Virus record (IMG/VR): IMGVR_UViG_2737471869_000016
From: a virus
Lineage: Duplodnaviria; Heunggongvirae; Uroviricota; Caudoviricetes
Direction: 5' to 3' (one strand)
DNA: 37,383 nt
The notes below the pieces were generated by a model. That model made no database searches and was not told the DNA's origin. It saw only the letters and a program-made list of their open reading frames with translations. Below are positions 1,028-16,980 of the stretch, piece by piece; within the stretch, counting starts at the first letter, position 1; each line of letters begins with the position of its first letter. The position numbers and the translations under genes were made by a program.

Positions 1028-1099
1028 GCTGCAATTCTCTTTACTACAGATGTGCGAAGGCCTCCCGCCGCAAGGTGCAGGAAAGGCCCGGAACAGGAA

Positions 1100-1952: not shown

Positions 1953-2215
1953 GTTCTGGCTTCCTTCAGTAGCTGGTTAAACATGTGAGTAAGTGGATTG
2001 CTACACCCGAACGGCATCGGGTTTACGTGGTAAGAAGCCTGGCCTCCAGTTTTGCGAGCGCGACCACCTGTGCTGCGGTTTGTTCTGATGACTAAGCCGC
2101 CGCGCCAAAGTCGGCGTAACTCAGCATTAATAGCTGTGGTTGGGGTGTTCAGTGCTGCGGCGATTTCTCCGCCGCTACAACCCGGATGTGTAGTGATGTA
2201 GTCCAGAATGGTCAT
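1949..2215 (-). CDS. Small putative DNA-binding protein (88 aa), winged-helix-like
   Basis: Sequence GGEIAAALNTPTTAINAELRRLWRGGLV resembles a helix-turn-helix recognition segment; overlapping start/stop with neighbours. Confidence 0.45.
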   Translation of the reverse strand: MTILDYITTHPGCSGGEIAAALNTPTTAINAELRRLWRGGLVIRTNRSTGGRARKTGGQASYHVNPMPFGCSNPLTHMFNQLLKEART

Positions 2216-2415
2216 TTGCGTGGCTCCTGTACCTGTCGGATAAGATTCACCCGCGCCACGTTGGTGGCGCAGAAGTAAGTGCCGTCAGTGAGGTAGATGT
2301 GGTGTGCATCCTTTTCCGAACGATGTTTGTCGATAGTGGTAATCAGGCGTTCGTCGACCTCGTATTCGCGCCCTCTGGAGGTAAAGCGAATGACGGGAAA
2401 ATGCTTAATTGCCAT
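2212..2415 (-). CDS. Hypothetical protein (67 aa)
   Basis: ORF-track frame, tightly packed in minus-strand operon. Confidence 0.4.
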   Translation of the reverse strand: MAIKHFPVIRFTSRGREYEVDERLITTIDKHRSEKDAHHIYLTDGTYFCATNVARVNLIRQVQEPRK

Positions 2416-2438
2416 TGCGCCCCCTTTGTCCAGTAACC

Positions 2439-2855
2439 CTATGCGTTAAATACGGCACGTTGCGCGTCATCAATGAATACAGCTTGAGATCGTTCTATCA
2501 GGCGGAGATTTGTCAGAAGCTCTGACTCTTTTGTGTGGTAAGGCGTTATCAGGTATTTGCCGTGCAGTTCGGCAATAATGGTGTATTGCGTCATTATTGC
2601 CGAACCAAGAATGTAAATGCGGCGTCCAATGCTGGACGGATTCATGGCTGCAACTGTTGACTGTGTTTTAAGAGTGTCGATTTCTTTGCTCTGTTCCTCA
2701 ATAATTTTGGCTGCTTCAGAGGTGGCTATTGCGATGGTCAGTGCGTAAAGCGCTGCCATATGTTGATTATCTTTCTGGGCTGCCCTGGGCAGCTTGTCTT
2801 GCTCTGCTGACACCATTTTTAATGTGTTGATAATATTTTTTTCTTTTGCGTTCAT
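2439..2855 (-). CDS. Hypothetical protein (138 aa)
   Basis: ORF-track frame; protein-like composition; no motif recognised. Confidence 0.5.
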   Translation of the reverse strand: MNAKEKNIINTLKMVSAEQDKLPRAAQKDNQHMAALYALTIAIATSEAAKIIEEQSKEIDTLKTQSTVAAMNPSSIGRRIYILGSAIMTQYTIIAELHGKYLITPYHTKESELLTNLRLIERSQAVFIDDAQRAVFNA

Positions 2856-3057
2856 TTTATATCTCCGTTATTTGCGTGTGCGAATACCTCCGCGAATGCG
2901 GATAGTTTTCAGGTTTTCGGGTTTAATCTGGTGTTTTGTTTAAGCTGTTATTTGTCAGTGAAAAAGCGTTCAATCTTTTTTACTGAATGAATAATTCGCA
3001 TAATCCCAATGGCGCAGGCCACCGAAATAATCAGAACAAGCCATGAGATAAATATAC

Positions 3058-3300
3058 TCATGCGATATTCCCCAGCTTATACGGTTCAATGTGTTCCCCG
3101 CATTCTGCGGCACAGATCAGCTCGGAAAGTTCGTTCAGTGCATCCAGATCATCAGCGTAAAAAGCAACGTCATACAAACTCCGGATTGCCCTGGTCAATG
3201 AGTCACGGGCTGCATGTTCAGCATGAGCGCCTGATGCACTTAAGCGAAAATAAAATCGTTCAAGTGCTTTGTTAATGAGAGTTTTATATTCTTTGCCCAT
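3058..3300 (-). CDS. Hypothetical protein (80 aa)
   Basis: ORF-track frame; no motif recognised. Confidence 0.4.
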   Translation of the reverse strand: MGKEYKTLINKALERFYFRLSASGAHAEHAARDSLTRAIRSLYDVAFYADDLDALNELSELICAAECGEHIEPYKLGNIA

Positions 3301-3311
3301 CGCAACGCCCT

Positions 3312-3590
3312 TTAATCTGCTTTCTGAATTTCAGCTTCTGAATCCATACAAATAATTTCGATATAGGGTTCATCGCCATTAACCTGACGTGCCTTTTCAG
3401 CTTCGCTAATAATTTCTCGTACGGTCTGGTACGGAAGCTCCACAGTCAGGCGCGTACCGTTCAGATAAACGTAAGTAGCTGCGTTTTTTTCGGATGGAAC
3501 AACTCCGTCAATGGCTGATGCGCGTAATAACAGTTCACCGCGAAAATCAATAAAACGGATAAATACACCTTGTGCATGCTCTTTGGTCAT
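3312..3590 (-). CDS. Hypothetical protein (~92 aa; the ORF-track frame extends to 3650 but an internal ATG at 3590 with AGGTG 5 nt upstream avoids overlap with the upstream gene)
   Basis: ORF-track frame 3312..3650; internal Met (MTKEHAQGV...) preceded by a Shine-Dalgarno-like AGGTG. Confidence 0.45.
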   Translation of the reverse strand: MTKEHAQGVFIRFIDFRGELLLRASAIDGVVPSEKNAATYVYLNGTRLTVELPYQTVREIISEAEKARQVNGDEPYIEIICMDSEAEIQKAD

Positions 3591-3600
3591 AAAGCACCTG

Positions 3601-3951
3601 TTATAAATCAGCCTGTTTAATAAAACTTTGCCCGCGAAGCAGACGATCAACCGTGCGAAGTGCTTCGTATAATGTGAAATCCTGCCCGAAGTGATTGTCG
3701 CCGCAGTTCAATGCAAAAATGCGGTTTCCGGTAAACGGATTGCGTGGGCATTTGTGGACCACGATTCCAGCTTTCTCAATCAGCCAGGCATGCTCGCCGA
3801 TTTGTTTTACAGCGTGGCCATCCGGTGTTGCGTGCGTCTCGTTCAGGTTATAGCGACTGTTACTACGTGATGCACTGGTAGCGACGTGGTGTACATGGCG
3901 TTCTACGCCATTACGAAATTTGGAGTATGGATTATTAGCGTTTTTTTTCAT
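3601..3951 (-). CDS. Hypothetical protein (116 aa)
   Basis: ORF-track frame; no motif recognised. Confidence 0.45.
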   Translation of the reverse strand: MKKNANNPYSKFRNGVERHVHHVATSASRSNSRYNLNETHATPDGHAVKQIGEHAWLIEKAGIVVHKCPRNPFTGNRIFALNCGDNHFGQDFTLYEALRTVDRLLRGQSFIKQADL

Positions 3952-3972
3952 GATGGTGCTCTGTTCATTGTT

Positions 3973-4176
3973 TTAGCTGTTAGCCAAAGCGTCTTTTAAC
4001 ATCGCCACAAGGTTTACTTCAGGCTTTTCCATTTTGGCGCGTTTGGGGCGGATAATAATTCGACCGTCAGCCAACATCTTTTTGCATGTATTAAGAGGGA
4101 TACCTGTTATCTCTGCATATTTCTGCAGGGATACATAGGGGGCATTCACATTGATATTGATGGTTATACCTGACAT
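3973..4176 (-). CDS. Small HTH DNA-binding protein, excisionase/AlpA-like (67 aa)
   Basis: Segment YVSLQKYAEITGIPLNTCKKMLADGRIIIRP matches the Xis/AlpA-type HTH pattern (hydrophobic-TGI/LS-x-T-x-x-x-hydrophobic); position in a phage-like control region. Confidence 0.5.
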   Translation of the reverse strand: MSGITININVNAPYVSLQKYAEITGIPLNTCKKMLADGRIIIRPKRAKMEKPEVNLVAMLKDALANS

Positions 4177-4192
4177 CCCACTAGCCTCCTGA

Positions 4193-4399
4193 TCAGGAAG
4201 ATTTGTTTTGTTCTTTCTGGGTTAGCTCTAGGCCGCGAAGGAAGATCATGCGCGCCATGTTAGAGGATGAGCGTTGTTCTTTAGCTGCCATTTCATCAAT
4301 GACGGCTCGCTCCTCGAGGGACAGCCGAAGTGCCAGTCTTGGACCTGTGGCGGTGTTACGCGGAATGCGTGATCTGGTATCGTGAAGAACTTGTTTCAT
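4193..4399 (-). CDS. Ribbon-helix-helix (CopG/Arc-like) DNA-binding protein (68 aa)
   Basis: RLALRLSLEERAVIDEMAAK: beta-strand followed by helix pattern typical of RHH proteins; divergent from the XRE regulator gene. Confidence 0.45.
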   Translation of the reverse strand: MKQVLHDTRSRIPRNTATGPRLALRLSLEERAVIDEMAAKEQRSSSNMARMIFLRGLELTQKEQNKSS

Positions 4400-4474
4400 A
4401 GTGGTATATTGTGATCATCTAATAGCTCGTGAAATCATTTTGGTATCAAAAAAGATACCTGTCAAGGTTTTTGT

Positions 4475-4879
4475 ATGAAAAATGATATTGGTCAGCGGTT
4501 GCGTGAGGAAAGGGAAAGATTGGGACTTAGTCAAGTTGCCATGAGCGACATTGGTGGAGTCAAAAAGCTAACTCAGCTTAGATATGAGAAAGGAGATAGC
4601 TTTCCTGATGCTGCGTATTTGGCAGCGCTGTCTCGTTTTGGCCTTGATGTTCAGTATGTTGTGTTGGGAATTCACTCACCTGAAACTTATAACGATGATG
4701 AGCAGGAGTTGATTACTCGCTTTCGAGCAGCTTCGTTAGATGTGAAAAATGCGGTGATTGGGGCTTTAAAAGGCGCGATCAGTGAAAAGGAAACTCAGCC
4801 ATCAGGACGTGAGTTAAATATTTCTGGTGGTAATAACCGTATCGCTGGTCGTGACTATAACGAAACTAAGGGTAGGTGA
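4475..4879 (+). CDS. XRE/Cro-CI family HTH transcriptional regulator (134 aa)
   Basis: N-terminus IGQRLREERERLGLSQVAMSDIGGVKKLTQLRYEKG is a classic XRE-type HTH; divergently oriented to the minus-strand early-like operon. Confidence 0.8.
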   Translation: MKNDIGQRLREERERLGLSQVAMSDIGGVKKLTQLRYEKGDSFPDAAYLAALSRFGLDVQYVVLGIHSPETYNDDEQELITRFRAASLDVKNAVIGALKGAISEKETQPSGRELNISGGNNRIAGRDYNETKGR

Positions 4880-4894
4880 TAGTAGGGAGGTGAC

Positions 4895-5545
4895 ATGGCC
4901 GTCAACTCAAACGGTTCAAACAATCGCGTTGCAGGGCGTGATTTTCACGAAAAGAATATTCAGATAGAGCGATATGATGGTTCTCATACCGTCAATATCG
5001 CAATCCCTTCGAATAATGATGATGACGATCGCCCTTTGCTTAAGGCTCAGCGTAAGGAGCTAAATAGCTTGGTTGCTGCTATTGCAGAAGCTAGCAATAC
5101 TGAAGCGTTTATTATTTGGCAAAAAGTACATGCGGAGATTGGTGTAGCTGGTATTGATGATATGACAGTAAATCAATATAAAACAGCGGAGAGTTTTCTG
5201 CATGCAATGCTTGAGCGATGTAAAGATCATGATGCCTGTAAGGCTCTTGTAAGTTTATTACTACGTAACAGTGAAGACTGTGGACTTCGACAAAAACTTC
5301 TGCGGTATTGCCATATCAATTTCGGTACAGGACGTTTAAACGATCTTACTCGTTCTCAGTTACAGTCTGCATTGTCGTGGTTAGAGCAACAATCGGCATC
5401 AAGCCACACAGAGAGTTCGACCTTACCAGAAGTCCGACTACGTGCTTCAGAATTAATCCGACTTTATCCAAAAGAAATAATATTCTTTATCTGCGTAGGG
5501 GTTTTGGTAGGCGGTGTCATTTCTAGGGCGTTTTTTAATTTGTAA
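4895..5545 (+). CDS. Hypothetical protein with C-terminal hydrophobic segment (216 aa)
   Basis: ORF-track frame; C-terminus IIFFICVGVLVGGVISRAFF is a probable transmembrane helix. N-terminus repeats the motif NNRVAGRDFHE also found at the C-terminus of the preceding regulator. Confidence 0.55.
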   Translation: MAVNSNGSNNRVAGRDFHEKNIQIERYDGSHTVNIAIPSNNDDDDRPLLKAQRKELNSLVAAIAEASNTEAFIIWQKVHAEIGVAGIDDMTVNQYKTAESFLHAMLERCKDHDACKALVSLLLRNSEDCGLRQKLLRYCHINFGTGRLNDLTRSQLQSALSWLEQQSASSHTESSTLPEVRLRASELIRLYPKEIIFFICVGVLVGGVISRAFFNL

Positions 5546-5574
5546 TCTTACTTGAGCTAAATTGAGGTAATGAT

Positions 5575-5922
5575 ATGAAAGTAAAAAAGGTTCAACTATT
5601 AGTTACTTTTTTATCTATGTTTTCTTTTTCCGCCGTCGCAATGCCTTTTAAAACTATTGAACGTGAGAGTTTCAAGGGGGTATGGCCATTTAATACTGAT
5701 GAGGTTCAATTACAGTGTCTTGATGGTAATCCTTATGTGATGAATTTTGACGATAATAAGTTATATGCACTTACAGGTTTGGCTCGAATAAAAGGTAAAA
5801 CATTTGGTGCGTTACCGTTAGATAACAATAATCCATTTTGGCTAGATAATGATGCCGCCCCAGGGTTAAAAAAGAGTCTGGGGGATGTCACTAAGGCTGC
5901 ATTTGATTTATGTGATAAGTAA
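5575..5922 (+). CDS. Small secreted/periplasmic protein (115 aa)
   Basis: N-terminus MKVKKVQLLVTFLSMFSFSAVAMP looks like a signal peptide; SD-like sequence upstream. Confidence 0.6.
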   Translation: MKVKKVQLLVTFLSMFSFSAVAMPFKTIERESFKGVWPFNTDEVQLQCLDGNPYVMNFDDNKLYALTGLARIKGKTFGALPLDNNNPFWLDNDAAPGLKKSLGDVTKAAFDLCDK

Positions 5923-5927
5923 CTAAA

Positions 5928-6929
5928 ATGTCGGTTCGTAAGATTCCATCAGGTAAATGGCTTTGCGAATGTTATCCCTACGGGGCATCGGGAAAACGCA
6001 TTCGTAAACAGTTTGCGACAAAAAGTGAGGCGCTCTCTTATGAGCGCCGTTTAATGAATAGTAGAGTTGGAGACGAGTTTCAAGATGGTTCTGGTCCTCG
6101 TCTTTCTGAGTTGATTGCTCGTTGGTTTGAGATGTACGGTAAAACCTTGTCCTCTGGTGCAGAGCGCAAAGTCAAACTTGAGGCGATTTGTTCCAGGCTG
6201 GGAGATCCATTTGCTTCTCAGTTTGACAAAAATATGTTTGCTACTTATCGGGAAAGAAGGCTATCAGGAGAATGGAATCCCAAGGGGAAGAAAAAACTTA
6301 GTGAAGCAACCGTTAATCGCGAGCAGTCATATCTACATGCTGTTTTTGCCGAACTGAAGCGCCTTGGGGAGTGGTCTGGTGAAAACCCCCTGACTGGTAT
6401 TCGCAAGTTTCGTGAGGAAGAAAAGGAACTGGCGTTTCTGTATGTAGATGAGATTGAACGCCTTCTGATTGCGTGTGATGAGTCACGGAATAAAGATTTG
6501 GGGGTTGTTGTCCGTATTGGGCTTGCGACGGGTGCTCGGTGGAGTGAAGCAGAAGGATTAAAGCAATCTCAAGTACTGCCCGGTCGAATCACATTTGTTA
6601 AAACTAAAGGAAAGAAGAACCGCACTGTACCGATTTCACCTCAATTGCAGGCTATGCTTCCTAAAAAACGAGGAGCGCTATTTTCACCATGTTATGAGGC
6701 TTTTGACGCTGCAATTAAGAGAGCGAAGATCGAGCTTCCTGATGGGCAATTAACTCATGTGCTACGTCACACGTTTGCCAGTCATTTTATGATGCGGGGC
6801 GGAAATATTCTTGTGTTGCAAAAAATACTGGGGCATAGCGATATAAAAATGACTATGCGTTATGCGCATTTTGCTCCAGGTCATTTAGAGGCTGCTGTTG
6901 AATTGAACCCTTTTGACAATAGAGGGTAA
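5928..6929 (+). CDS. int: Tyrosine site-specific integrase, phage P2-like (333 aa)
   Basis: Catalytic-region motifs TGARWSEA, ITFVKTKGKKNRTVPIS, HVLRHTFASHFMMRGGNILVLQKILGH and MTMRYAHFAP (R..HxxR..Y). Recalled similarity to the phage P2 Int C-terminal region. Gene ends ~100 bp before the tRNA-Leu-derived att-like fragment. Confidence 0.9.
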   Translation: MSVRKIPSGKWLCECYPYGASGKRIRKQFATKSEALSYERRLMNSRVGDEFQDGSGPRLSELIARWFEMYGKTLSSGAERKVKLEAICSRLGDPFASQFDKNMFATYRERRLSGEWNPKGKKKLSEATVNREQSYLHAVFAELKRLGEWSGENPLTGIRKFREEEKELAFLYVDEIERLLIACDESRNKDLGVVVRIGLATGARWSEAEGLKQSQVLPGRITFVKTKGKKNRTVPISPQLQAMLPKKRGALFSPCYEAFDAAIKRAKIELPDGQLTHVLRHTFASHFMMRGGNILVLQKILGHSDIKMTMRYAHFAPGHLEAAVELNPFDNRG

Positions 6930-7035
6930 AAAGTGGCGATAAAAAGTGACAATAGATTCAAATGGCGTTGTATAGAGCCATTTTCAAAGTTAATAAAATC
7001 ATAAGGTTATGATTTATAAATGGTGGTTGATAGTT

Positions 7036-8122: not shown

Positions 8123-9355
8123 ATGATATCAATCAGATACATGAGGATAAATATGCAAAAATCCTTCCGATTCACCAATTCGTCCATCAAAGCCCTTCCG
8201 GCAAACACAGATACCAGATCTACAGAGCTTGAGGTATCTGATACCGAAGTTATTGGCCTCAAATGTCTCTCAGGTCGAACGGGTAACAAACGTTTCCTCC
8301 TGCGCTACACATTCCACGGTACCAAAAAAAGTATCAGTATTGGCAGATTCCCTGAAATTGATGTGGGGACAGCTCGCCAGATAGCTCGCCGTCATAAGGA
8401 GGCGATTGCACTTGGAAATGACCCCAAGGCAGAGCGCGATAATTATCGTGCGATGCCAACGCTTAGTGAGTTTTTTCACCAGACCTATGTTCCGTTCATC
8501 AAGCGCCATAAAAAGTCCTGGGATAAGGATGTTCAGCGTTTCACGCAATACATTGAACCTCGTCTGGGGAAGATACGTTACTGCGACCTTCGGGCCCGGG
8601 AAATCCAGCAGGTGCTTTTCGACATGCTTGAGGGTCGTATTCACGGCCAGCAGTATGCACCGTCTACCTGTAACAGGGCACTGGCTATTCTGAAAACTAT
8701 GGGGCGTTATGCGCTACGACAGGATGTCTTAGAGAAGAATGAAGCCGATAAGATCCCTTTGCTGAAGGAGAATAATCAGCGGACGCGCTTTTTTGACGCC
8801 GATGAGATCAGAAGGATCCTCGACGCTGCGGCACGATACCCCAATAAGGCCGCCGGGGGACTGATAGCCATGCTGCTGTTAACCGGTACACGCAAATCAG
8901 AAATGCTGAATGTCATGCACAAACATATTGATCGGGATAACAGGTCGTTATTCATTCCTTATACTAAGAATGGTCGCAGCAGAACTGTGTATCTCAGTGA
9001 TGTTGCATTATCCATTATTGATTCGATCCCACGGGCTGGCAGCAACCCCTATCTGTTTGCCGTAAAAGATAATGGAAAACCAATATCAGAACCCCGGTGG
9101 GCCTATGAAAAAATACTGGCAGAGTGCGGGATAGATAAAAGTGAAGTCTGTTTCCACACTACGCGCCATTCCGTCGCATCATTACTTGTCTCCAGCGGAC
9201 AGTACAGTCTGTATGACGTTAAAGCCCAGCTTGCGCATGCCAGTATTCAGAGTACGGAGCGCTACGCAAAACTGACACCAGAGCGAATGCGTCAGACCGG
9301 GCAGGGTGTTACCGACCTTCTTTTACCCCCCGTAGCTACCAGTAAAGAACAGTGA
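8123..9355 (+). CDS. int: Tyrosine site-specific integrase, P4-type with N-terminal arm-binding domain (~400 aa; likely start at the Met of MQKSFRFT, 8153)
   Basis: N-terminus FRFTNSSIKALPA (arm-type DNA-binding domain pattern), catalytic motifs LLLTGTRKSEM, HTTRHSVASLL, AHASIQSTERY. Confidence 0.9.
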   Translation: MISIRYMRINMQKSFRFTNSSIKALPANTDTRSTELEVSDTEVIGLKCLSGRTGNKRFLLRYTFHGTKKSISIGRFPEIDVGTARQIARRHKEAIALGNDPKAERDNYRAMPTLSEFFHQTYVPFIKRHKKSWDKDVQRFTQYIEPRLGKIRYCDLRAREIQQVLFDMLEGRIHGQQYAPSTCNRALAILKTMGRYALRQDVLEKNEADKIPLLKENNQRTRFFDADEIRRILDAAARYPNKAAGGLIAMLLLTGTRKSEMLNVMHKHIDRDNRSLFIPYTKNGRSRTVYLSDVALSIIDSIPRAGSNPYLFAVKDNGKPISEPRWAYEKILAECGIDKSEVCFHTTRHSVASLLVSSGQYSLYDVKAQLAHASIQSTERYAKLTPERMRQTGQGVTDLLLPPVATSKEQ

Positions 9356-10734: not shown

Positions 10735-11169
10735 ATGCAAACCCAATATGCCTTAAAACAGGCAGGATTAACTCTGCCTGTTACTAAAGAATTTCAGCAG
10801 CATATTACTACTCTTCTGGCAAATCAGGTTTTACAAAAAATAACTGAGGCAGTGGTTATTAATTTCCGTGATCCGGACTACAGTGCAGAATCCGGGGGCT
10901 TTCATCCCGTTGAAATACGGTTTATCCGTAAGAATAATGAATGGTATTTTGATTATGTCACAGATTTTAGTTATATGGGGCGTGTCTACCCTGAGCTGGA
11001 AAAAGAAATTGATTTTTGCTGGTCGGGGAATTATGTCTTCCATTATCTGATTGGGGATATTTTACTGGCAGCAGAGAGGAATGAACTCTGGTCCCTGTGG
11101 GAGCGTAATTTTATGGAGTATCTCTCTATGGGGATTTACCGGGTAACGGTAACTGTGGAAAGTTGTTGA
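10735..11169 (+). CDS. Hypothetical protein (144 aa)
   Basis: ORF-track frame; followed by terminator hairpin at 11283..11313. Confidence 0.6.
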   Translation: MQTQYALKQAGLTLPVTKEFQQHITTLLANQVLQKITEAVVINFRDPDYSAESGGFHPVEIRFIRKNNEWYFDYVTDFSYMGRVYPELEKEIDFCWSGNYVFHYLIGDILLAAERNELWSLWERNFMEYLSMGIYRVTVTVESC

Positions 11170-11282
11170 CCCGTTATGAACAGGAAGAAAGCGGGCGGCT
11201 TTGTAATCTACTGCATGTGGCGTGCATCACAGCATGGAGATGATGTCTCTTTTTCCTGGCTGTTCGCATAAACAAGTGCAGA

Positions 11283-11313
11283 CACGGGGGATCTCAGATC
11301 CCTCGTGATTTTT
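11283..11313 (+). terminator. Rho-independent terminator
   Basis: CACGGGGGATC-TCA-GATCCCTCGTG hairpin (one G-T wobble) followed by ATTTTT. Confidence 0.6.
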
Positions 11314-11360
11314 GCCCCCTATGGTGCATTCTCCAGTAGCAGGGTGATAACGGTTAATCC

Positions 11361-11396
11361 ATTACCCCAACGACAGTATTACACCGGTAATAAATG
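11361..11396 (+). repeat. Copy A of a diverged direct repeat (25-bp core ATTACCCCAACGACAGTATTACACC)
   Basis: Matches 22147..22171 with 2 mismatches in 25 bp; flanking similarity extends to ~45 bp; contains internal inverted hexamers ATTACC/GGTAAT. Confidence 0.6.
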
Positions 11397-11470
11397 TTCA
11401 TGAATACAGTCAGTTATGTGGGTTTTGAGGTGGACTATGTCATCGTTGACGATAACTGAAGGTTTTACAG

Positions 11471-11698
11471 ATGTATAAAACTCGCGGTGAAAGGATCGCA
11501 GAAAGGCTGTGCTGGATATTACTTCAACTGTATACCGGTAATACGGTATCGGTTAATGATATATGTCAGCGTTTCGCGGTCAGTCGCCGAACCGGACAGC
11601 GTGATTTGTTGAGAGTTGAAACTGTAACGGAAACTATTTCACCTGGAAGGGTAAGGCTGGCAAATTTGATAAGGGAACGAGTTAGACGAAATTTTTAA
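11471..11698 (+). CDS. Small HTH protein (75 aa) resembling the N-terminal HTH of WYL-type regulators
   Basis: ICQRFAVSRRTGQRDLLRV parallels the N-terminal HTH of the 300-aa WYL protein ([20 protein letters not shown]). Confidence 0.5.
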   Translation: MYKTRGERIAERLCWILLQLYTGNTVSVNDICQRFAVSRRTGQRDLLRVETVTETISPGRVRLANLIRERVRRNF

Positions 11699-11733
11699 TC
11701 GAATCCATATCAATACTATAAAATATGAAAATT

Positions 11734-11759
11734 AACGGGAGTAAATATATACTCCCGTT
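11734..11759. terminator. Bidirectional terminator-like hairpin between convergent genes
   Basis: AACGGGAGTA-(6 nt)-TACTCCCGTT perfect 10-bp stem; T-rich tracts on both sides. Confidence 0.5.
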
Positions 11760-11779
11760 ATAATGCAACCTTTTTTTAA

Positions 11780-12598
11780 CTACTCAAATGATATTAATTT
11801 AGGTGCGACAGTGTTTTTATGATGTGTTGAATTTGCAAGATTAATAATATCATGAAATGATTTCATGTCGTCGTCAGTGATTTCTAGGGCTGGATCAGCT
11901 AAATCGGCACAGGTAACATTTAACCAGTGTGTTAATGAATCAATCCTGTTTGAAGTAATATATTCAGTGTGACCAACATTCCACTTCCAGTTGATTATCC
12001 GAGCTGGTCTGAATCTCACCTCCCGAACCCCAATTGGTGTTACTGACTCAACGAGAGGGTATATCGTGTTAAGTACTTTATCATGTTCACTGTAGATATT
12101 TAAATGCCCCATTTTTGAACCGTAAGCCATTTTCATTATGTTCTCTGTATAACTTGTTATTGGGGTGGCTCCGGCCATAGAGATTGTTAAGAGAATATTA
12201 TCATTTTTAATATAGGGTAATGTATTGTTTATTAATCGAGTCCCTAAAGAATGACCCATTATGATCACATTACGCTTTTCTTTAACGTATATCTCGTTTA
12301 TTACGCGTGCTAATTTTTCTCTGTTATTAACTGCTGCTTTCGTTGCATTATACCAGGCCTGACGCGCTTTAAATGGGATGGAGATTGATGACAATAAAGG
12401 AGATGTTCTCAGGGGGAAGAGAGTATATAGCCCCCACTCGTTCGCTATGTCAGAACTTAATATGGATAGTAGATTTGCCGATTCCCATTTATAGTATCTG
12501 ACATCAAGGCCACACCCTGCTTTAATTCGGTTAAACCATGATATATCATTTTCGGTCAGAAACCCTGATACAACAAGAAGAACCGGGCATTTTTTCAT
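11780..12598 (-). CDS. Alpha/beta-hydrolase fold protein (272 aa), putative serine esterase/lipase
   Basis: Nucleophile-elbow motif GHSLG (VIIMGHSLGTRL); candidate acid/base residues downstream (EHDKV); AT-rich gene immediately downstream of the WYL regulator on the same strand. Confidence 0.65.
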   Translation of the reverse strand: MKKCPVLLVVSGFLTENDISWFNRIKAGCGLDVRYYKWESANLLSILSSDIANEWGLYTLFPLRTSPLLSSISIPFKARQAWYNATKAAVNNREKLARVINEIYVKEKRNVIIMGHSLGTRLINNTLPYIKNDNILLTISMAGATPITSYTENIMKMAYGSKMGHLNIYSEHDKVLNTIYPLVESVTPIGVREVRFRPARIINWKWNVGHTEYITSNRIDSLTHWLNVTCADLADPALEITDDDMKSFHDIINLANSTHHKNTVAPKLISFE

Positions 12599-12659
12599 GG
12601 TAACTCCATTTTTTAGCTTACAAAAATAGCACTCAATGAAAATTATATTATCCGTGTCA

Positions 12660-13562
12660 TTACGGGGCGTTACTTGGCTGGGTGTAACGTTTCAGTGCGG
12701 ATTGTATATCTTCAGCAAGTTGTTGACGGATTGAGGCCGGTTGTATTACTTCGACATCCGGTATCCAGTATTTCATTAAAGGCATTATCTGATCTGTGTG
12801 TGTTACACGTGATATCACCAGTAAATCGCCAGACCGGGAAGTATGAATTATTTCCTGTCCTGGCAATAGATGACGGTGGGTAAACCACGGAGCAACATGT
12901 GCGGAAACTGAAATAAGAACTTCGATAAGGTCTTCGCTATACCAGATACCATCTGTCTTTTCTATTTTTTCATTAATTTCGGGGATTATCCTGAAAGAGA
13001 TATTACTCATGCAAACGTCTTTGACAGATGAGATAACAAAGCTTTTTAATGTACTGTCATGGGCGGCAGCGAGATACCACAATCCGTTGTCATTAACCAG
13101 TCTGTATGGCTCAACAGCCCGAAACTCTTTATCTTTGTAATTAAAATTTACTTTCTTCTGTGACAGGATGGCATCGGATAATACATTCAGAATTGACATG
13201 AATGATCCGCAGTTTTCGTATGGACGTTGTTTTATCAGAAACGGGTTGTTTTTCGTGTTACCTAACAAAATACTCAGTAGTCTGTCATCCCAGCGAGGGA
13301 ACAGCCCTTCAATACCCAGGATGCGCGTGAAATGACGTAAATCAGCATTGCTGCGTTGACCGAGAACACCGTCAGACAGGCGATAGCGACCATTTTGTCG
13401 AATCAGATTAAGATAGGACAGGCGCTGAGTAAGATCACGACGGATAGTTTTTTCGCAAACGTTAAATTCCTCAGATAACTCCCGGAAGGCTAGTGACTCA
13501 CCATTGTTCAGGCGAGTTAATATCAATCCGAGTCGATATCCAAGTTTATCGTGCTTACCCAT
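12660..13562 (-). CDS. WYL-domain transcriptional regulator (HTH + WYL), BrxR/CapW-like (300 aa)
   Basis: N-terminal HTH ([20 protein letters not shown]) and central WYL signature ([20 protein letters not shown]). Subfamily assignment is by analogy. Confidence 0.8.
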
Positions 13563-13611
13563 TCGTTTATCCGGTTAATGCCAGCGAAGAGGATATTTTC
13601 AGCAAAGTAAC

Positions 13612-13722
13612 GGACAGGATGAGTCCACTTTTACTGTGACGGAGAAAAAAATTAACTCATTAATTATCAATATATTAAAACATTGCTGGAATCATCGAAT
13701 AACATATGGACTCATCCTGTCC
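13612..13722. promoter_or_regulatory. Perfect 16-bp inverted repeat pair (GGACAGGATGAGTCCA / TGGACTCATCCTGTCC) spaced by 79 bp, 50-160 bp upstream of the WYL regulator start
   Basis: Arms at 13612..13627 and 13707..13722 are exact reverse complements, around an AT-rich spacer in the divergent promoter region between the WYL gene and the 108-aa gene. Confidence 0.55.
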
Positions 13723-13941
13723 ATGTGTATTTTTACGTTCAGGGTGATAATTATCATCCTGACCTGTACATGACCTGTTTTTGCTGCATATTTGACCATG
13801 CACTTTTGCCATCAAGTCGGAGAGGCAGGGGGGAACGTAAGATACGAAGGTTAGAGAGGTTATCAGCAATTACAATGATGATTAATATTTTCATAATATC
13901 GGAGAACATCATATTAGTTGAAATAACATAAAGGTGGTTCT

Positions 13942-14268
13942 ATGTATTTACATATCAGAAAGTATCAACTCGTAAATGCGAGATGGCGTGATGTCATTGA
14001 TCTGACAGATTATGAAGAAACAATAAGGCAGATTGTCGGTACATTATTTGGAAATGATTTTATTGAGGTCAGCGTTGAAACAAATTTTTTTACTCTGACA
14101 GTAAACAGTACAAGCAGTAAAATACCACACGGCATACTGGTGAATATGGGGAAAAGGCTGGCGGCTAATCTCCAGAGTATCACCTGTCATGCCATGCGGA
14201 TCTATCATGTTAATGGCCATCCTGACGCGCGGCAGTTATTTCACTGTTTTGATGTCGATTGCCTGTGA
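13942..14268 (+). CDS. Hypothetical protein (108 aa)
   Basis: ORF-track frame; divergent from WYL regulator, convergent with the polymerase gene. Confidence 0.5.
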   Translation: MYLHIRKYQLVNARWRDVIDLTDYEETIRQIVGTLFGNDFIEVSVETNFFTLTVNSTSSKIPHGILVNMGKRLAANLQSITCHAMRIYHVNGHPDARQLFHCFDVDCL

Positions 14269-14283
14269 TTAAGCCCCCAACTT

Positions 14284-14312
14284 CTGTTAAAGGAGTTGGG
14301 GGAGATTTAACG
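14284..14312. terminator. Hairpin between convergent genes (possible bidirectional terminator)
   Basis: CCCCCAACT-(11 nt)-AGTTGGGGG perfect 9-bp stem just downstream of both the 108-aa gene and the polymerase gene; no strong T-run. Confidence 0.45.
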
Positions 14313-14316
14313 GTTA

Positions 14317-16980
14317 TCAGGCTGGAAGACAGAATGTCGGATATTTACGGGCTATGATATCCATCAGTGACTTCATTCGCGGTGTTACAGAACTAAATTT
14401 CATTTGGGGTATTTTTGCTCTTACCGCATTTTTTACATCAGTCACCGTTACTGAATAGCCTTCTGACGTCAGCCATTCAGCAACCTCTTTACAGGAATAA
14501 CTTTTTTTATCTTTCAGCATCAGCCCCCATTGGCACTGAGTCAGCGCCCGGAGAAATAGTCTGACTAAAATATCATCACTACGTTTGCTTCCGACTTTTA
14601 GTTTCATATCAGAAAACACCGTCCGGCAATAGAGAAAATCACACCAGTCATCCCAGTCAGCCAGGGTCTTCAGTGTATGCGTTTGCCGCCAGTCGTCGAA
14701 AAGAGAGCGTTGCTGCAGAGCCTCTTCCATATTATCCCATGGGCGGGAAAACATCAGTAAATGCCCTTCATTCATGGCGGGCTGTACGGGCTGGCGTTTG
14801 AAATCGAATTCCAGATTAAGACGGATATCCTGTTCCCGGGATACCAGATCGCTTTCCGACAGCCACATCTCACGCGTTGATATCAACGTACTTCGGGATA
14901 ACGTCTGACCGGGTAAACGATTAAGGTAAAGATCTACCATATAGTCGTTATAGTCACTGCGTGGAATATCGGCAGGAGGTTTGACGCCAGCCCTGGCATG
15001 AACAACAGGTTTTCCCTGAATAGCTCTATAGGTTAACTGCCCCCGGGTTTTCATGGCGATAAGCTGGCTGACTTCATGCTTACATGTCAACATTGATGAA
15101 CCCGGATCAACAATATCGCACAGCGACTGGAAGCGGGAAGACAGTGGACCGCTCATGTTTATCTTGTTAAGTGGGCAATTTGTCAAAAAGCCATCGGTTG
15201 TGACGCTGACAACCGATGAATCAGAAGGCAAAGCATTCATGAGTTCCCCGGCAACGGCGCGGATAAATCCCGTTACATGCGCAGCAAAGAATGGCTGAGT
15301 AACCGATGATGGCGGGAGGGATCTGTTTAATCCACGGGCAGTATCAAAGGCGGTTTTGGCGCGAAGGCCCTGAGCAAGTTTGCCATAAAGCGAGTTGCCA
15401 ATTTCTTTCCAGAATTTCTCCTCCAGAGAACCTTTAATATGGCGATTACGGTTCTCACGGACCTGTTGAACAAAGGGAAGAAACACCGATGTTGATTCGC
15501 TGTTATGTGGGGAGATGTCACAGATCCAGGGGACGATGATCCCATTATGGATCGTCATCTCTGCCCCGAGCGACAGAGCAAGTTCGATTTCAGGTGCCGT
15601 TGCCCATGATTCGCCACTTAATGGAAAGAATAACCCATATTGATCGGTCCGAACCGGCAGGCTGGGATAGGGAACTGATTCCGGGAACCGAAATGTGACA
15701 AGCGCAAATCCCATTACATGCCCACAGTAATCGTCCGGATTTTTACTGAGGCGGATGTTCCCGTAATCGGGTGTGAGGATATCTAATAGCCCGGTGGTAT
15801 ACGCTCCAGCCAGATCGTAGTCATACCAGTGATCAGACGGTGTAACCCCCATCATAAAACACTCATTGCGTCCGCCGTGGTAACAGTTGATCGGGAACGT
15901 TTCAAACAACTCTCTTGAAGGAACACTGGCGGGGTTTTTAATCGTCCGGAATGCCTGTTTTTCCGTGAGCCAGAGTTCACGGGTTTTAATGTGTGTCCCA
16001 AGGCAGACTTCAGGAGACATATTGTTTTCTTTAAGTGTTTTGGTGAACCGTGAAACTGCCATCGCCCCGATGGTGGCGGGGACACGATCAATCATCAGCT
16101 CCCGGGCGCAAAAATTGCGAACCTGTAAAGCATAACGAACCGCAATCTCGGCATCCCGCAGAGCATAGGCTTCAAACCCTGCTCTGTCGCCCAGAAGATA
16201 TTCACGCATATTGGTTATGGAATAAGGTGCAGGAATGGTGAGTTTGGGAAGACCCAGTAATTCACCACATTCAGCCAGACCCATACCCCCGGGAGTGATA
16301 AGCAGTGTATCGATGAAAGCTACGTTACTGCAACGCGGAGGGGAAGTTCGTTTGTCAAACATTATCTGTTCAGTCTTTACGCGACGTTCCTGCTGTTCAT
16401 CAAAATCGATACCGTAACGATTTTTGAAGCTGCTGACAGTACCGCGTATTCCTTTCAGAAGAATTTTGTAGTCTGACCAGAAATTGGCAAAGGAGGCGAT
16501 ATCCGCACGAATGAAATGCGCATATATATTAATAATACCGGGCCATTTTGTAATCACACCCGTTTCAAGAAGCGGTGTAATCGTTTGACAGAGAAATTCC
16601 TTAAAAGACAGCCGGGATTTTTTCTGTGAGTCAGGTGGATAGATAATGTTCGATATACCTGTATTATCGGGTAAGACAACATAACTCTGATATGACAGAA
16701 TATCATTCTGTCGTGTTTCAGGGTTGAAAACATATTCGGTATCAAAACCGATATGGAGCGTCAGGTCGTTTGAAATCACAGACACGTTTTTTGATGCAGG
16801 TGGCATCACAGGATAATCATCAAGCGTTTTAGGTCTTTTACGATTGAGCACTGGCTCTGAAGTCACGGACTGATACCCCGAGGCGGCAGCGAGGATATCC
16901 TGCAAATTATGGCTCATAGTTAACTCCGAAAAAATGCCGGGAGCTGTGTCCCGGCATAAAGAATCAAGATTTAATAACAT
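14317..16980 (-). CDS. Family-B DNA polymerase of the primer-independent type (piPolB), pipolin hallmark (887 aa in ORF track; likely start at internal Met 16917, RBS GGAG)
   Basis: PolB motifs read in the translation: Exo I IGFDTEYV (DxE), Exo III YALRDAEI (Yx3D), motif B KEIGNSLYGKLAQG (Kx3NSxYG), motif C-like VTTDGF, and AMKTRGQ, i.e. the KTRG motif that I recall replacing KxY in piPolBs. Neighbours are integrase and AlpA/Xis-like genes. Confidence 0.85.
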   Translation of the reverse strand: MLLNLDSLCRDTAPGIFSELTMSHNLQDILAAASGYQSVTSEPVLNRKRPKTLDDYPVMPPASKNVSVISNDLTLHIGFDTEYVFNPETRQNDILSYQSYVVLPDNTGISNIIYPPDSQKKSRLSFKEFLCQTITPLLETGVITKWPGIINIYAHFIRADIASFANFWSDYKILLKGIRGTVSSFKNRYGIDFDEQQERRVKTEQIMFDKRTSPPRCSNVAFIDTLLITPGGMGLAECGELLGLPKLTIPAPYSITNMREYLLGDRAGFEAYALRDAEIAVRYALQVRNFCARELMIDRVPATIGAMAVSRFTKTLKENNMSPEVCLGTHIKTRELWLTEKQAFRTIKNPASVPSRELFETFPINCYHGGRNECFMMGVTPSDHWYDYDLAGAYTTGLLDILTPDYGNIRLSKNPDDYCGHVMGFALVTFRFPESVPYPSLPVRTDQYGLFFPLSGESWATAPEIELALSLGAEMTIHNGIIVPWICDISPHNSESTSVFLPFVQQVRENRNRHIKGSLEEKFWKEIGNSLYGKLAQGLRAKTAFDTARGLNRSLPPSSVTQPFFAAHVTGFIRAVAGELMNALPSDSSVVSVTTDGFLTNCPLNKINMSGPLSSRFQSLCDIVDPGSSMLTCKHEVSQLIAMKTRGQLTYRAIQGKPVVHARAGVKPPADIPRSDYNDYMVDLYLNRLPGQTLSRSTLISTREMWLSESDLVSREQDIRLNLEFDFKRQPVQPAMNEGHLLMFSRPWDNMEEALQQRSLFDDWRQTHTLKTLADWDDWCDFLYCRTVFSDMKLKVGSKRSDDILVRLFLRALTQCQWGLMLKDKKSYSCKEVAEWLTSEGYSVTVTDVKNAVRAKIPQMKFSSVTPRMKSLMDIIARKYPTFCLPA

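What the first reader, a model, noticed from the sequence alone, without database searches (positions are those of the whole stretch)
11780..13722. WYL regulator plus alpha/beta-hydrolase operon with perfect 16-bp inverted repeats in its promoter
A WYL-domain regulator (WYL signature [18 protein letters not shown]) is followed on the same strand by an AT-rich alpha/beta-hydrolase with a GHSLG nucleophile elbow. The promoter region carries two exact 16-bp inverted arms (GGACAGGATGAGTCCA) 79 bp apart. From what I recall, WYL regulators commonly repress defence operons until a nucleic-acid signal appears, so the hydrolase is a candidate stress- or phage-triggered effector (lipase/esterase-type); I do not recognise it as a described defence system. 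The arms could alternatively be terminal inverted repeats of a small mobile element.
Basis: partly seen in the sequence, partly recalled or inferred. Interest (0 to 1): 0.6.

Follow-up and report, generated by a model that had tools for sequence, protein, structure and literature searches.

The report
WYL-controlled hydrolase operon in an E. coli pipolin
A DNA-sensing-type (WYL) regulator and an uncharacterised lipase-like enzyme form a two-gene operon in the conserved core of an E. coli mobile element (a pipolin), and the "inverted repeats" are two copies of the regulator's binding site; this is a plausible but untested stress- or phage-triggered module, not a transposon.

Summary
On the minus strand an HTH–WYL–WCX regulator (12660-13562) is followed, after 61 bp with no terminator, by a DUF726 α/β-hydrolase (11780-12598; Ser117/Asp173/His210 invariant). 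Two perfect 16-nt arms lie at 13612-13627 and 13707-13722.

The window is an E. coli pipolin (piPolB element next to tRNA-Leu). The literature lists the WYL gene as a pipolin core gene.

The arms are two oppositely oriented copies of a 17-bp pseudo-palindrome, TGGAC-N7-GTCCA. WYL homologues down to 56% identity keep both copies, including those with a different downstream gene. The two copies mutate independently, so they are protein-binding sites, not a hairpin and not transposon ends.

The proximal copy always lies exactly 11 nt upstream of a conserved −10-like hexamer, and no −35 is recognisable. Other pipolins carry a third copy with the same geometry. This matches the published layout for DriD, which is also the closest solved structure. 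I therefore favour ssDNA-triggered activation (about 0.55) over BrxR/CapW-style repression (about 0.3).

The hydrolase is a generic lipase/esterase fold. It matches no PADLOC defence model, so a defence role is unproven. Novelty is moderate.

The parts
12660..13562 (-). WYL-family transcription factor gene (300 aa; HTH_DeoR + WYL + WCX), first gene of the operon
   Evidence: ORF and Pfam hits. A profile search of PDB sequences hits PafBC (1e-10) and DriD (about 1e-8). The AF2 model has pLDDT 77; Foldseek against PDB puts DriD 8tp8 first at 2.7e-12, with BrxR and CapW at 5e-8 to 6e-7. dN/dS is 0.20-0.24 against close alleles.
11780..12598 (-). DUF726 α/β-hydrolase gene (272 aa), second gene of the operon; GHSLG nucleophile elbow with Ser117, Asp173 and His210
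12599..12659 (-). 61-bp WYL-hydrolase spacer: no terminator-like site, GGAG Shine-Dalgarno 7 nt before the hydrolase ATG
   Evidence: Sequence, terminator scan, alignment of class-A loci.
13611..13627 (.). Proximal operator copy (sense strand TGGACTCATCCTGTCCg), centred 57 nt upstream of the WYL ATG, occupying the −35 position
   Evidence: It is conserved at a fixed position in 13 Enterobacterales homologues of 56-99% identity.
13707..13723 (.). Distal operator copy in the opposite orientation (sense strand tGGACAGGATGAGTCCA), centred 96 bp from the proximal copy
   Evidence: The GACAGGWT core is conserved in all homologues. Centre-to-centre spacing is 82-85 or 94-96 bp.
13595..13600 (-). Predicted −10 hexamer of the operon promoter (GAAAAT; GATAAT or CATAAT in homologues), exactly 11 nt downstream of the proximal operator; no −35 is recognisable
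   Evidence: Footprint alignment. The spacer length is invariant while its sequence varies. The generic promoter scan did not call it, because there is no −35.
13664..13676 (+). IHF-consensus-like site (TATCAATATATTA, fits WATCAANNNNTTR) about midway between the two operators; tentative
   Evidence: It is a perfect match here and in L006 and L019, and has at most 1 mismatch at the same aligned place in 5 other lineages. It is absent in the L005 class and in L021. The chance of a perfect match in one shuffled spacer is about 0.01-0.02.
11733..11760 (.). Hairpin terminator at the end of the operon, shared with the convergent 75-aa gene
   Evidence: 11-bp stem, 5 G-C pairs, T-run. The stem AACGGGAG/CTCCCGTT is conserved in L006, L008, L013 and L014.
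13942..14268 (+). Divergent orphan gene ORF108 (108 aa), possibly co-regulated. Read on the + strand, the distal operator is followed by 11 nt and then TACGTT (13734-13739)
   Evidence: It is annotated as a CDS in RefSeq. It is present in every locus with the hydrolase, including the IS1-deleted L012, and absent from class-B pipolins. dN/dS is 0.11 against L006. The geometry comes, but the −10-like hexamer is not conserved in L006, so this link is weak.
11471..11698 (+). 75-aa HTH-only paralogue of the WYL regulator's DNA-binding domain, convergent with the hydrolase; possible co-player at the same operators
   Evidence: Pfam HTH_11 and HTH_DeoR, both below cut-off. It is 33% identical to WYL residues 3-63. 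It is conserved in 14 loci. dN/dS is 0.17-0.20.

Best explanation
This is a self-contained regulatory cassette in the conserved core of an E. coli pipolin: an autoregulated operon, WYL regulator then DUF726 serine hydrolase, ending in a hairpin terminator. The two 16-bp 'arms' are two oppositely oriented copies of the regulator's 17-bp pseudo-palindromic operator (TGGAC-N7-GTCCA); each copy is probably bound by one WYL dimer. The proximal copy sits where a −35 box should be, exactly 11 nt upstream of a weak −10. The distal copy lies 8 or 9 helical turns away, with an IHF-like site between them, which suggests cooperative binding through a DNA bend.

By analogy with DriD, the closest solved relative, I propose the following sequence. 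Single-stranded DNA from DNA damage, phage attack or the element's own piPolB-driven replication binds the WYL domain. The regulator then recruits RNA polymerase to this −35-less promoter. That switches on more regulator (positive feedback) together with the hydrolase. The hydrolase is a cytoplasmic Ser-Asp-His lipase/esterase-type enzyme and serves as the output.

Shown here: the gene structure, the domains, the conserved triad, the conservation and geometry of the operator, and the pipolin context. Inferred: binding by this protein, the sign of regulation, the ssDNA ligand, the IHF/looping element, the hydrolase substrate, and its biological role (defence/abortive infection or another function for the element).
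For: Operon: the genes share a strand, are 61 bp apart with no terminator between them, and are followed by a conserved hairpin terminator.

Context: nucleotides 7036-34300 are 100% identical to E. coli 08-00022. There the island abuts tRNA-Leu and carries the IntSXT-type integrase, DUF2787, WYL, 'DNA polymerase' (piPolB), a second integrase, and type I R-M cargo. PMC11551731 names WYL and DUF2787 as core pipolin genes.

Operator: both copies are conserved upstream of WYL homologues of 56-99% identity in about 9 genera. This includes loci whose downstream gene differs and one locus without a piPolB gene nearby (L003). The sequence between the copies is not conserved. The two copies differ from each other at independent positions, with no compensatory changes. 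The motif occurs nowhere else in the window.

Geometry: the proximal copy is followed by exactly 11 nt and then nAnAAT in all 13 aligned loci. A third copy with the same 11-nt spacing to TATGCT or TAGGCT precedes another gene in 7 class-B loci. Operator spacing is 82-85 or 94-96 bp.

Relatives: profile and fold searches rank DriD and PafBC above BrxR and CapW. [quoted passage not shown]

Hydrolase: α/β-hydrolase fold with an invariant triad. Its closest homologues (66-86% identity) all occupy the same slot in E. coli pipolins. More distant relatives lie in integrase islands, a phage-like region and a defence-island-like region. An archaeal DUF726 protein is reported as a bactericidal phospholipase (bioRxiv 10.64898/2026.06.10.730825).

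Activator logic also fits two lineages in which the WYL gene is frameshifted but the hydrolase is intact and under purifying selection.
Confidence: 0.6

Rival explanations
1. Same cassette, opposite sign. The WYL protein is a BrxR/CapW-type repressor that occludes the −35 region, with the distal site helping through looping. ssDNA produced during infection or damage releases it and de-represses the hydrolase.
For: The operator overlaps the RNA polymerase binding region. Two operators at integral helical turns with a bend site between them is a classic repression-loop layout. The characterised WYL regulators on mobile elements and defence islands are repressors released by ssDNA (PMC9122601; PMC13622015). 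BrxR and CapW are significant structural matches.
Against: All three promoter types carrying the site lack any −35 and have weak −10 hexamers (GAAAAT, TATGCT, TAGGCT), so they would be poor promoters once de-repressed. The strict 11-nt operator-to-−10 spacing and the fixed orientation are typical of an activator that positions the polymerase, as shown for DriD. The domain signature is HTH_DeoR+WCX rather than WHD_BrxR+BrxR_CTD. DriD and PafBC rank well above BrxR and CapW. Two lineages have lost the regulator but keep the hydrolase, which would be awkward if it were a repressor of a toxic effector.
Confidence: 0.3
2. The arms are the terminal inverted repeats of a miniature transposable element (MITE) inserted upstream of the WYL gene.
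For: There are two perfect 16-nt inverted arms enclosing an A+T-rich 79-bp segment.
Against: The region matches at one place per genome (median 1) across 317 E. coli genomes, and the motif occurs only here in the window. The arms are retained at a fixed distance from the WYL start codon in homologues from other genera, while the enclosed sequence is not conserved. A third copy stands alone in front of another promoter. A 111-bp unit has no coding capacity, and no flanking direct repeat appears.
Confidence: 0.02
3. The arms act through nucleic-acid structure: a long-range hairpin or cruciform serving as a replication origin for the adjacent piPolB, a terminator, or an RNA element.
For: The region lies just downstream of the piPolB gene in class-B pipolins and is A+T-rich. 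The distal copy plus a T-run scores as terminator-like.
Against: The arms diverge from each other without compensatory changes, with 2-3 mismatches in most lineages. A 79-nt loop is unfavourable for a hairpin. The sites persist with the WYL gene in L003, where no piPolB gene is nearby. There is no Rfam match at E ≤ 1. The fixed spacing to −10 hexamers points to transcription.
Confidence: 0.05
4. The regulator is a pipolin housekeeping switch, and the hydrolase is merely passenger cargo in a variable slot. It could be an esterase with a metabolic or envelope role, or a factor for element exit, rather than an anti-phage effector.
For: WYL is a core pipolin gene. The slot downstream of it is variable: DUF726 in some loci, a 131-149-aa orphan with or without an MMR_HSR1 GTPase in others. 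The hydrolase matches no PADLOC model. The cassette lies in the core module, not the defence-cargo module. It is frequently lost.
Against: In this window the operator motif is found only at the cassette's own promoter region, not in front of the piPolB, integrase or excisionase genes. The recognisable regulon is therefore the cassette itself. A variable gene behind a conserved sensor is also the pattern seen in defence hotspots. Two of the six contexts read for more distant DUF726 relatives contain defence-type neighbours: one lies near a BrxR-type WYL gene and one in a defence-island-like region.
Confidence: 0.35

Closest known systems
DriD (Caulobacter crescentus WYL activator; PDB 8TP8, 9PFV) and PafBC
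   Same: The HTH-WYL-WCX architecture is the same, and these are the best structural matches. The binding site overlaps the −35 position at a fixed distance from a recognisable −10 in promoters with no −35 (PMC13004042, compared). A site also lies in the regulator's own, bidirectional, promoter region.
   Different: Sequence identity is only about 15%, and the operator sequence is unrelated. DriD is a chromosomal DNA-damage regulator with a multi-gene regulon, whereas this protein is carried on a mobile element and its recognisable targets are its own operon and perhaps one neighbour. Paired inverted operators 8-9 turns apart are not described for DriD in the passages I read. Activation and ssDNA binding are untested here.
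BrxR / CapW (WYL repressors of BREX, CBASS and other defence islands)
   Same: Each is a WYL transcription factor encoded immediately upstream of, and co-transcribed with, variable cargo on mobile elements. Each binds inverted repeats in its own promoter. Both are significant structural matches. ssDNA is reported as the ligand for both (PDB 9C5G title; PMC13622015).
   Different: The Pfam signature differs (HTH_DeoR+WCX here; WHD_BrxR+BrxR_CTD in a BrxR-type protein), and a profile search of PDB sequences gives no hit to either. The BrxR operator is an 11-bp inverted repeat with a 5-bp spacer located downstream of the promoter. Here the site is a 5+7+5 pseudo-palindrome at the −35 position, present twice 96 bp apart. 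The downstream gene is not a known defence system.
DUF726 / TMCO4-Mil1 family α/β-hydrolases, including the archaeal bactericidal phospholipase 'cinquedea'
   Same: The Pfam DUF726 match is above the gathering score, with a GxSxG elbow and a Ser-Asp-His triad. Membrane-lipid hydrolysis has been reported for one member.
   Different: The match covers only profile positions 192-316 of 343. This protein is a minimal 272-aa single-domain form with no signal peptide or transmembrane segment, while cinquedea is secreted and the eukaryotic members are membrane proteins. Only 162 representatives out of 1.84 billion reach E<1e-3. No activity has been tested.
Lipase/phospholipase effectors of known defence systems (for example the patatin-like CapV of CBASS; named from my own knowledge, not tested here)
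   Same: The shared idea is a hydrolase that could attack membranes and is kept silent until a nucleic-acid-derived signal appears.
   Different: Those effectors are activated post-translationally by a second messenger and belong to other folds or families. Here the only visible control is transcriptional, and there is no homology to any PADLOC model.

Membership tests
WYL-domain transcription factors of the HTH-WYL-WCX type (PafBC/DriD/YafY-like) | N-terminal (winged) helix-turn-helix DNA-binding domain | tested here: met
   Pfam HTH_DeoR 3.2e-7, residues 10-61; the AF2 model shows helices 7-19, 26-33 and 37-47 followed by a β-hairpin.
WYL-domain transcription factors of the HTH-WYL-WCX type (PafBC/DriD/YafY-like) | Central WYL (Sm-like β) domain followed by a WCX dimerisation domain | tested here: met
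   Pfam WYL 1.4e-10 (residues 124-183) and WCX 9.5e-10 (residues 212-290). The profile aligns over WYL+WCX of PafBC and DriD. Foldseek gives DriD at 2.7e-12.
WYL-domain transcription factors of the HTH-WYL-WCX type (PafBC/DriD/YafY-like) | Binds ssDNA (or another nucleic-acid ligand) in the WYL domain, which changes promoter binding or activation | not testable with these tools
   Needs EMSA or fluorescence polarisation with and without ssDNA; inferred only from homology.
WYL-domain transcription factors of the HTH-WYL-WCX type (PafBC/DriD/YafY-like) | Sequence-specific operator in target promoters | tested here: inconclusive
   A strong comparative footprint links a conserved 17-bp site to the gene across 13 loci with fixed geometry. 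Physical binding is not shown.
BrxR/CapW defence-island WYL repressors | BrxR-type winged-helix and C-terminal domains (Pfam WHD_BrxR, BrxR_CTD), or closest similarity to BrxR/CapW | tested here: not met
   Pfam gives HTH_DeoR + WCX. The PDB profile search hits only PafBC and DriD. BrxR and CapW rank below DriD and PafBC by 4-5 orders of magnitude in E-value.
BrxR/CapW defence-island WYL repressors | Encoded next to, and regulating, a recognised defence system | tested here: not met
   The co-transcribed gene has no PADLOC hit at E ≤ 0.01. The alternative downstream genes in homologous loci also have none, apart from weak LeoBC/LeoA-like GTPase hits. Recognised defence genes (type I R-M and others) lie more than 8 kb away beyond the piPolB gene.
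α/β-hydrolase fold, DUF726 (PF05277) | Pfam model score above the gathering threshold | tested here: met
   27.0 bits against a cut-off of 22.6, but only profile positions 192-316 of 343 are covered. RefSeq names it 'DUF726 domain-containing protein'.
α/β-hydrolase fold, DUF726 (PF05277) | Nucleophile elbow G-x-S-x-G with an Asp and a His completing the triad on an α/β-hydrolase core | tested here: met
Described anti-phage defence systems (PADLOC-DB v2) | Any component matches a system model | tested here: not met
   The hydrolase gives 0 families. The WYL protein matches only generic CRISPR-associated or HTH-WYL models.
MITE / small transposable element | Multiple dispersed copies, with the terminal inverted repeats and interior moving together | tested here: not met
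   Single copy per genome. The arms are conserved with the WYL gene while the interior diverges.
Pipolin (piPolB-encoding integrative element of Gammaproteobacteria) | A piPolB gene with an IntSXT-type integrase, DUF2787 and WYL genes, integrated at a tRNA gene | tested here: met
   RefSeq annotates an 866-aa 'DNA polymerase / DNA polymerase type-B family protein'. Pfam finds DUF2787 and Arm-DNA-bind_3+Phage_integrase. In strain 08-00022 the island abuts tRNA-Leu. The synteny matches the description in PMC11551731. I did not test the polymerase itself; it has no Pfam or NCBIfam hit.

The most novel reading that the evidence does not exclude
The pipolin core carries a self-amplifying, ssDNA-sensing WYL activator switch whose output is a DUF726 membrane-lipid hydrolase. 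That would be either a new transcriptionally triggered abortive-infection system, or the missing exit route (lysis or vesiculation) for pipolins, which have no known transfer machinery. In that reading the slot behind the WYL gene is a hotspot for interchangeable effectors: the hydrolase, a small orphan protein, or a GTPase.
Probability: 0.15. Interest if true: 0.75.

Novelty: new variant of a known kind. Interest (0 to 1): 0.45.

Why it matters
Pipolins are widespread but poorly understood. Their piPolB polymerase has been characterised, yet nothing is known about how the element senses its host or regulates itself. The WYL gene is one of their few core genes.

This work gives a concrete operator sequence, a predicted promoter and a defined two-gene output, so the question can be tested directly with a reporter fusion and one purified protein. 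If the DriD-like activation layout holds, the activator branch of the WYL family would extend from chromosomal DNA-damage regulons to mobile elements of Enterobacteriaceae.

The hydrolase belongs to a rare, MGE-borne branch of DUF726 with no known function in bacteria. A phenotype such as toxicity, phage protection or membrane damage would assign a role to this DUF726 branch and might add a defence or exit module. If no phenotype appears, the cassette is just one more regulator-plus-cargo pair.

Tried and rejected
1. MITE/TIR reading: rejected for copy number and for conservation linked to the gene.
2. RNA element: no Rfam hit at E ≤ 1 in 11000-14500. The arms do not co-vary.
3. Known defence system: the hydrolase has no PADLOC or NCBIfam hit. 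PHROGs hits are only self-like families of unknown function, probably from pipolins counted within prophage regions.
4. Word-index homology searches for the hydrolase found only 5 and 16 proteins. The exhaustive HMMER search was needed to reach distant relatives.
5. Multi-domain DUF726 relatives were scanned for informative partner domains. The only partners found were an MTES_1575 restriction-endonuclease-like domain in one protein and a sub-threshold HTH_16 hit in another.
6. Phage and plasmid collections: no phage hit, and one 25%-identity Vibrio plasmid hit with uninformative neighbours.
7. Internal promoter for the hydrolase: a perfect TATAAT lies in the 61-bp spacer, but it has no −35 and is not conserved in L006, so I did not adopt it.
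8. Homology between ORF108 and the 106-131-aa genes behind the third operator in class-B pipolins: none.
9. Extra half-sites (GACAGGATG at 8718 and 13162) lie inside coding regions and lack the second half-site; I treat them as chance or unresolved.
10. The search for related loci with the 17-sequence WYL alignment failed because no stretch was conserved enough; I repeated it with 8 closer sequences.
11. The afdb50 fold library was unavailable.
12. Campylobacterota WYL homologues (26-29% identity) have no similar upstream repeat, as expected for diverged operators, so they neither support nor contradict the model.
Full report
**1. What is in the sequence**

Both genes are on the minus strand. 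ORF 12660-13562 (300 aa) contains the quoted WYL signature and matches Pfam HTH_DeoR, WYL and WCX. It is followed, 61 bp downstream, by ORF 11780-12598 (272 aa). This second ORF carries IIMGHSLGTRL and matches Pfam DUF726 (27 bits, cut-off 22.6) and LCAT.

No terminator-like site lies between the two genes. A hairpin with a T-run lies directly after the second gene at 11733-11760, and it is conserved in diverged alleles. The inverted arms are exactly as reported: 13612-13627 and 13707-13722, 16 nt, perfect, 79 nt apart. At up to 3 mismatches they are the only two matches in the window, against 0.21 expected.

**2. Where the window comes from**

The region is 100% identical to E. coli strain 08-00022, and similar sequence occurs in 317-330 of 5,426 complete E. 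coli genomes, always on the chromosome. In the annotated record the island abuts the tRNA-Gly/Cys/Leu cluster. It carries, in order:
- a site-specific integrase and orphan genes;
- a DUF2787 protein;
- the DUF726 protein and the HTH regulator;
- a small orphan gene;
- an 866-aa 'DNA polymerase';
- an HTH_17 excisionase-like gene and a second tyrosine recombinase;
- type I restriction-modification and other nuclease genes.

This matches the published anatomy of Gammaproteobacteria pipolins, in which piPolB, an IntSXT-family integrase, DUF2787 and a WYL protein form the conserved core and defence genes form the variable distal module (PMC11551731). That paper does not mention the hydrolase or DUF726, and neither does the E. 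coli pipolin survey.

**3. The arms are operator sites**

I fetched WYL homologues of 26-100% identity with their flanks from public genomes and metagenomes. Every Enterobacterales homologue (56-99% identity) has the same two elements upstream. The genera represented are Escherichia, Citrobacter, Intestinirhabdus, Franconibacter, Buttiauxella, Scandinavium, Enterobacter, Mangrovibacter, Leclercia, Limnobaculum, Cedecea and Yersinia.
- A distal copy reads (T)GGACAGGWTGnGTCCA.
- A proximal copy, its reverse complement, lies at a fixed position: its 17-mer is centred 56-60 nt upstream of the ATG in 13 loci. In L006, which has a longer leader, it is about 12 nt further upstream.

The 65-79 bp between the copies is otherwise poorly conserved. 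Each copy is itself a pseudo-palindrome, TGGAC-N7-GTCCA, the size expected for one HTH dimer.

The two copies differ from each other at independent positions, with 2-3 mismatches in most lineages and no compensatory changes. Selection therefore acts on each site and not on base pairing between them. The sites also stay with the WYL gene in a Yersinia canariae locus that has no piPolB gene nearby. These points exclude the MITE reading and make a hairpin, cruciform or origin reading unlikely. No Rfam family matches the region.

**4. Promoter geometry**

In all 13 aligned loci the proximal copy is followed by exactly 11 nt of variable sequence and then a conserved hexamer: GAAAAT here (13595-13600, minus strand), GATAAT or CATAAT elsewhere. 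About 26 nt further on lie a GGAT Shine-Dalgarno-like motif and the ATG. Nothing resembling TTGACA lies 16-18 nt upstream of that hexamer, because the operator occupies the position.

Class-B pipolins (Cedecea, Buttiauxella, Mangrovibacter, Leclercia, Limnobaculum, Scandinavium) carry a third full copy of the site 2.2-3.1 kb downstream of the WYL start codon. It has the same orientation and the same 11-nt spacing to TATGCT or TAGGCT. It lies about 45 nt upstream of a small gene whose product starts with a signal-peptide-like sequence.

In this window the distal copy, read on the + strand, is followed by 11 nt and TACGTT (13734-13739). That points towards the divergent orphan ORF108 (13942-14268). 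The hexamer is not conserved in the diverged allele L006, so I regard this link as weak.

Centre-to-centre operator spacing falls into two classes, 82-85 bp and 94-96 bp, which is about 8 or 9 helical turns. A perfect match to the IHF consensus WATCAANNNNTTR lies midway (13664-13676). It recurs perfectly or with one mismatch at the same aligned place in eight lineages but is missing in two. I take this as a tentative sign of cooperative binding across a bend.

**5. Which WYL regulators it resembles**

A profile of the family hits only PafBC (1e-10) and DriD (about 1e-8) among PDB sequences. An AF2 model (pLDDT 77) is most similar to DriD (2.7e-12) and PafBC. BrxR and CapW follow at 5e-8 to 6e-7.

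[quoted passage not shown] Those promoters lack a recognisable −35, and DriD recruits RNA polymerase once ssDNA has bound (PMC13004042). The layout found here is the same in kind.

By contrast, BrxR binds an 11-bp inverted repeat with a 5-bp spacer downstream of its promoter and represses (PMC9122601). I therefore put activation at about 0.55 and repression at about 0.3. An operator over the −35 position is also compatible with repression, and the WYL regulators characterised so far on mobile elements are repressors. One further hint favours activation, or a non-toxic product. The WYL gene is frameshifted in an E. coli lineage (L006 and L007, two independent assemblies) and in Franconibacter helveticus (L015). 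In both, the hydrolase ORF remains intact. In L006 the hydrolase has evolved under purifying selection (dN/dS 0.09).

**6. The hydrolase**

Word-index searches found only close relatives, all in the same slot of E. coli pipolins. An exhaustive profile search of 1.84 billion representatives gave just 162 hits at E<1e-3. In an alignment of 24 sequences down to 22% identity, Ser117, Asp173 and His210 are invariant, as are Gly12-Phe13 near the first strand.

No PADLOC or NCBIfam model matches. More distant relatives lie in other mobile or conflict-type contexts:
- an integrase island (L042);
- a phage-like run of small genes (L043, L044);
- a region with nSTAND, NERD, PIN and DpnI genes (L036);
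- next to an IS element and a BrxR-type WYL gene (L009).

One archaeal DUF726 protein is reported to be a secreted bactericidal phospholipase. This makes an effector role plausible but does not demonstrate it.

**7. A variable slot behind a conserved sensor**

Downstream of the conserved WYL gene and operator, pipolins carry one of two arrangements. Class A (Escherichia, Citrobacter, Intestinirhabdus and Franconibacter; a Salmonella member appears) carries the DUF726 gene. Class B carries a 131-149-aa orphan that overlaps the WYL stop codon, sometimes followed by a 299-aa MMR_HSR1 GTPase with weak LeoBC-like similarity.

In L006 the N-terminal half of the WYL gene is 90% identical to the window, but the C-terminal half and the hydrolase are both 66% identical. 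The sensor half and the hydrolase thus appear to have been exchanged together.

In about 140 of 330 E. coli genomes an IS1-associated deletion has removed the WYL gene and the first 154 codons of the hydrolase. The cassette is therefore accessory to the element. In this window the operator motif is found only in the cassette's own promoter region, not in front of the piPolB, integrase or excisionase genes.

**8. Verdict**

It is best explained as an autoregulated WYL-hydrolase operon with two operator copies, within the pipolin core. The 'mobile element ends' alternative is rejected.

The defence-effector idea is neither supported nor excluded. The regulatory logic is probably DriD-like activation rather than the assumed repression.

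Relative to known systems this is a new variant of the WYL-regulator-plus-cargo theme. It has an uncharacterised DUF726 output and a distinctive paired-operator, −35-less promoter. Interest is moderate (0.45): it is a clean, directly testable handle on pipolin biology, but nothing here contradicts current understanding.

Noticed in passing
window 11471-11698 (+): This is a 75-aa HTH-only protein, 33% identical to residues 3-63 of the WYL regulator, so it is a stand-alone paralogue of its DNA-binding domain. It is convergent with the hydrolase. It is conserved next to DUF2787 in 14 pipolin loci, with dN/dS of 0.17-0.20. It is not annotated in strain 08-00022. It could compete for, or cooperate at, the same operators.
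   Followed up: partly
window 13739-13762: A 24-bp near-perfect palindrome, TCAGGGTGATAATTATCATCCTGA, lies between the distal operator and ORF108. Its arms contain the operator core CAGGATGA in a different arrangement (two inverted 8-mers, 6-bp spacer). It may be the site of another regulator or an extra WYL site.
   Followed up: no
window 13942-14268 (+): ORF108 is an orphan 108-aa gene with no Pfam, PADLOC or PHROG hit. It is divergent from the WYL gene. It is present in every locus that has the DUF726 gene, and it is retained in the IS1-deletion variant. It is absent from class-B pipolins. dN/dS is 0.11 against L006. It also occurs in Enterobacter hormaechei and Cronobacter sakazakii.
   Followed up: partly
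window 1-7035: The left flank differs from strain 08-00022. Identity starts at 7036, inside the position of the annotated tRNA-Leu, and ARAGORN finds no complete tRNA in the window. A different integrase gene (5928-6929; Int_N + Phage_integrase) and an HTH gene lie to the left. This suggests a second integrative element in tandem at the same attachment site.
   Followed up: partly
L012 4081-5227 (E. coli YPE12) and about 140 other E. coli genomes: A common pipolin variant has an IS1 in place of the WYL gene and the first 154 codons of the hydrolase. It leaves a 118-aa C-terminal fragment annotated as a hypothetical protein.
   Followed up: partly
L002 8233-8280; L016 7066-7113; also L018, L019, L020, L021, L023: Class-B pipolins have a third full operator copy, followed by 11 nt and then TATGCT or TAGGCT. 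It lies just downstream of the small HTH gene and upstream of a 106-131-aa gene whose product begins with a signal-peptide-like sequence (MNKIFTALLISLIPLASA...). This gene is probably a second target of the regulator.
   Followed up: partly
L005 6920-7315; L002 6905-7339; L017 5308-6207: The alternative cargo behind the WYL gene is a 131-144-aa orphan overlapping the WYL stop codon, sometimes followed by a 299-aa MMR_HSR1/dynamin-like GTPase with weak PADLOC LeoBC/LeoA similarity.
   Followed up: partly
L006/L007 6032-6927: The WYL gene here is a mosaic. Codons 1-145 are 90% identical to the window, while codons 145-299 and the hydrolase are both 66% identical. There is a frameshift at the junction, which indicates recombination inside the regulator gene.
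   Followed up: partly
protein collection: The WYL regulator and the DUF726 hydrolase are filed in the same 90%-identity cluster (2,477 members), although they are unrelated proteins. This is a clustering artefact or reflects a fused gene call somewhere, and it explains why the hydrolase's own cluster did not appear in the first homology search.
   Followed up: no
window 8718-8726 and 13162-13170: Two extra exact matches to the operator half-site GACAGGATG lie inside the integrase gene and the WYL gene (4 matches in the window against 0.42 expected). They lack the second half-site, and their significance is unknown.
   Followed up: partly
L009-L011 and L038-L040: Distant stand-alone DUF726 genes (290-291 aa) are each accompanied by a 71-aa gene, downstream in one group and upstream in the other. 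This may be a small partner or immunity protein.
   Followed up: no
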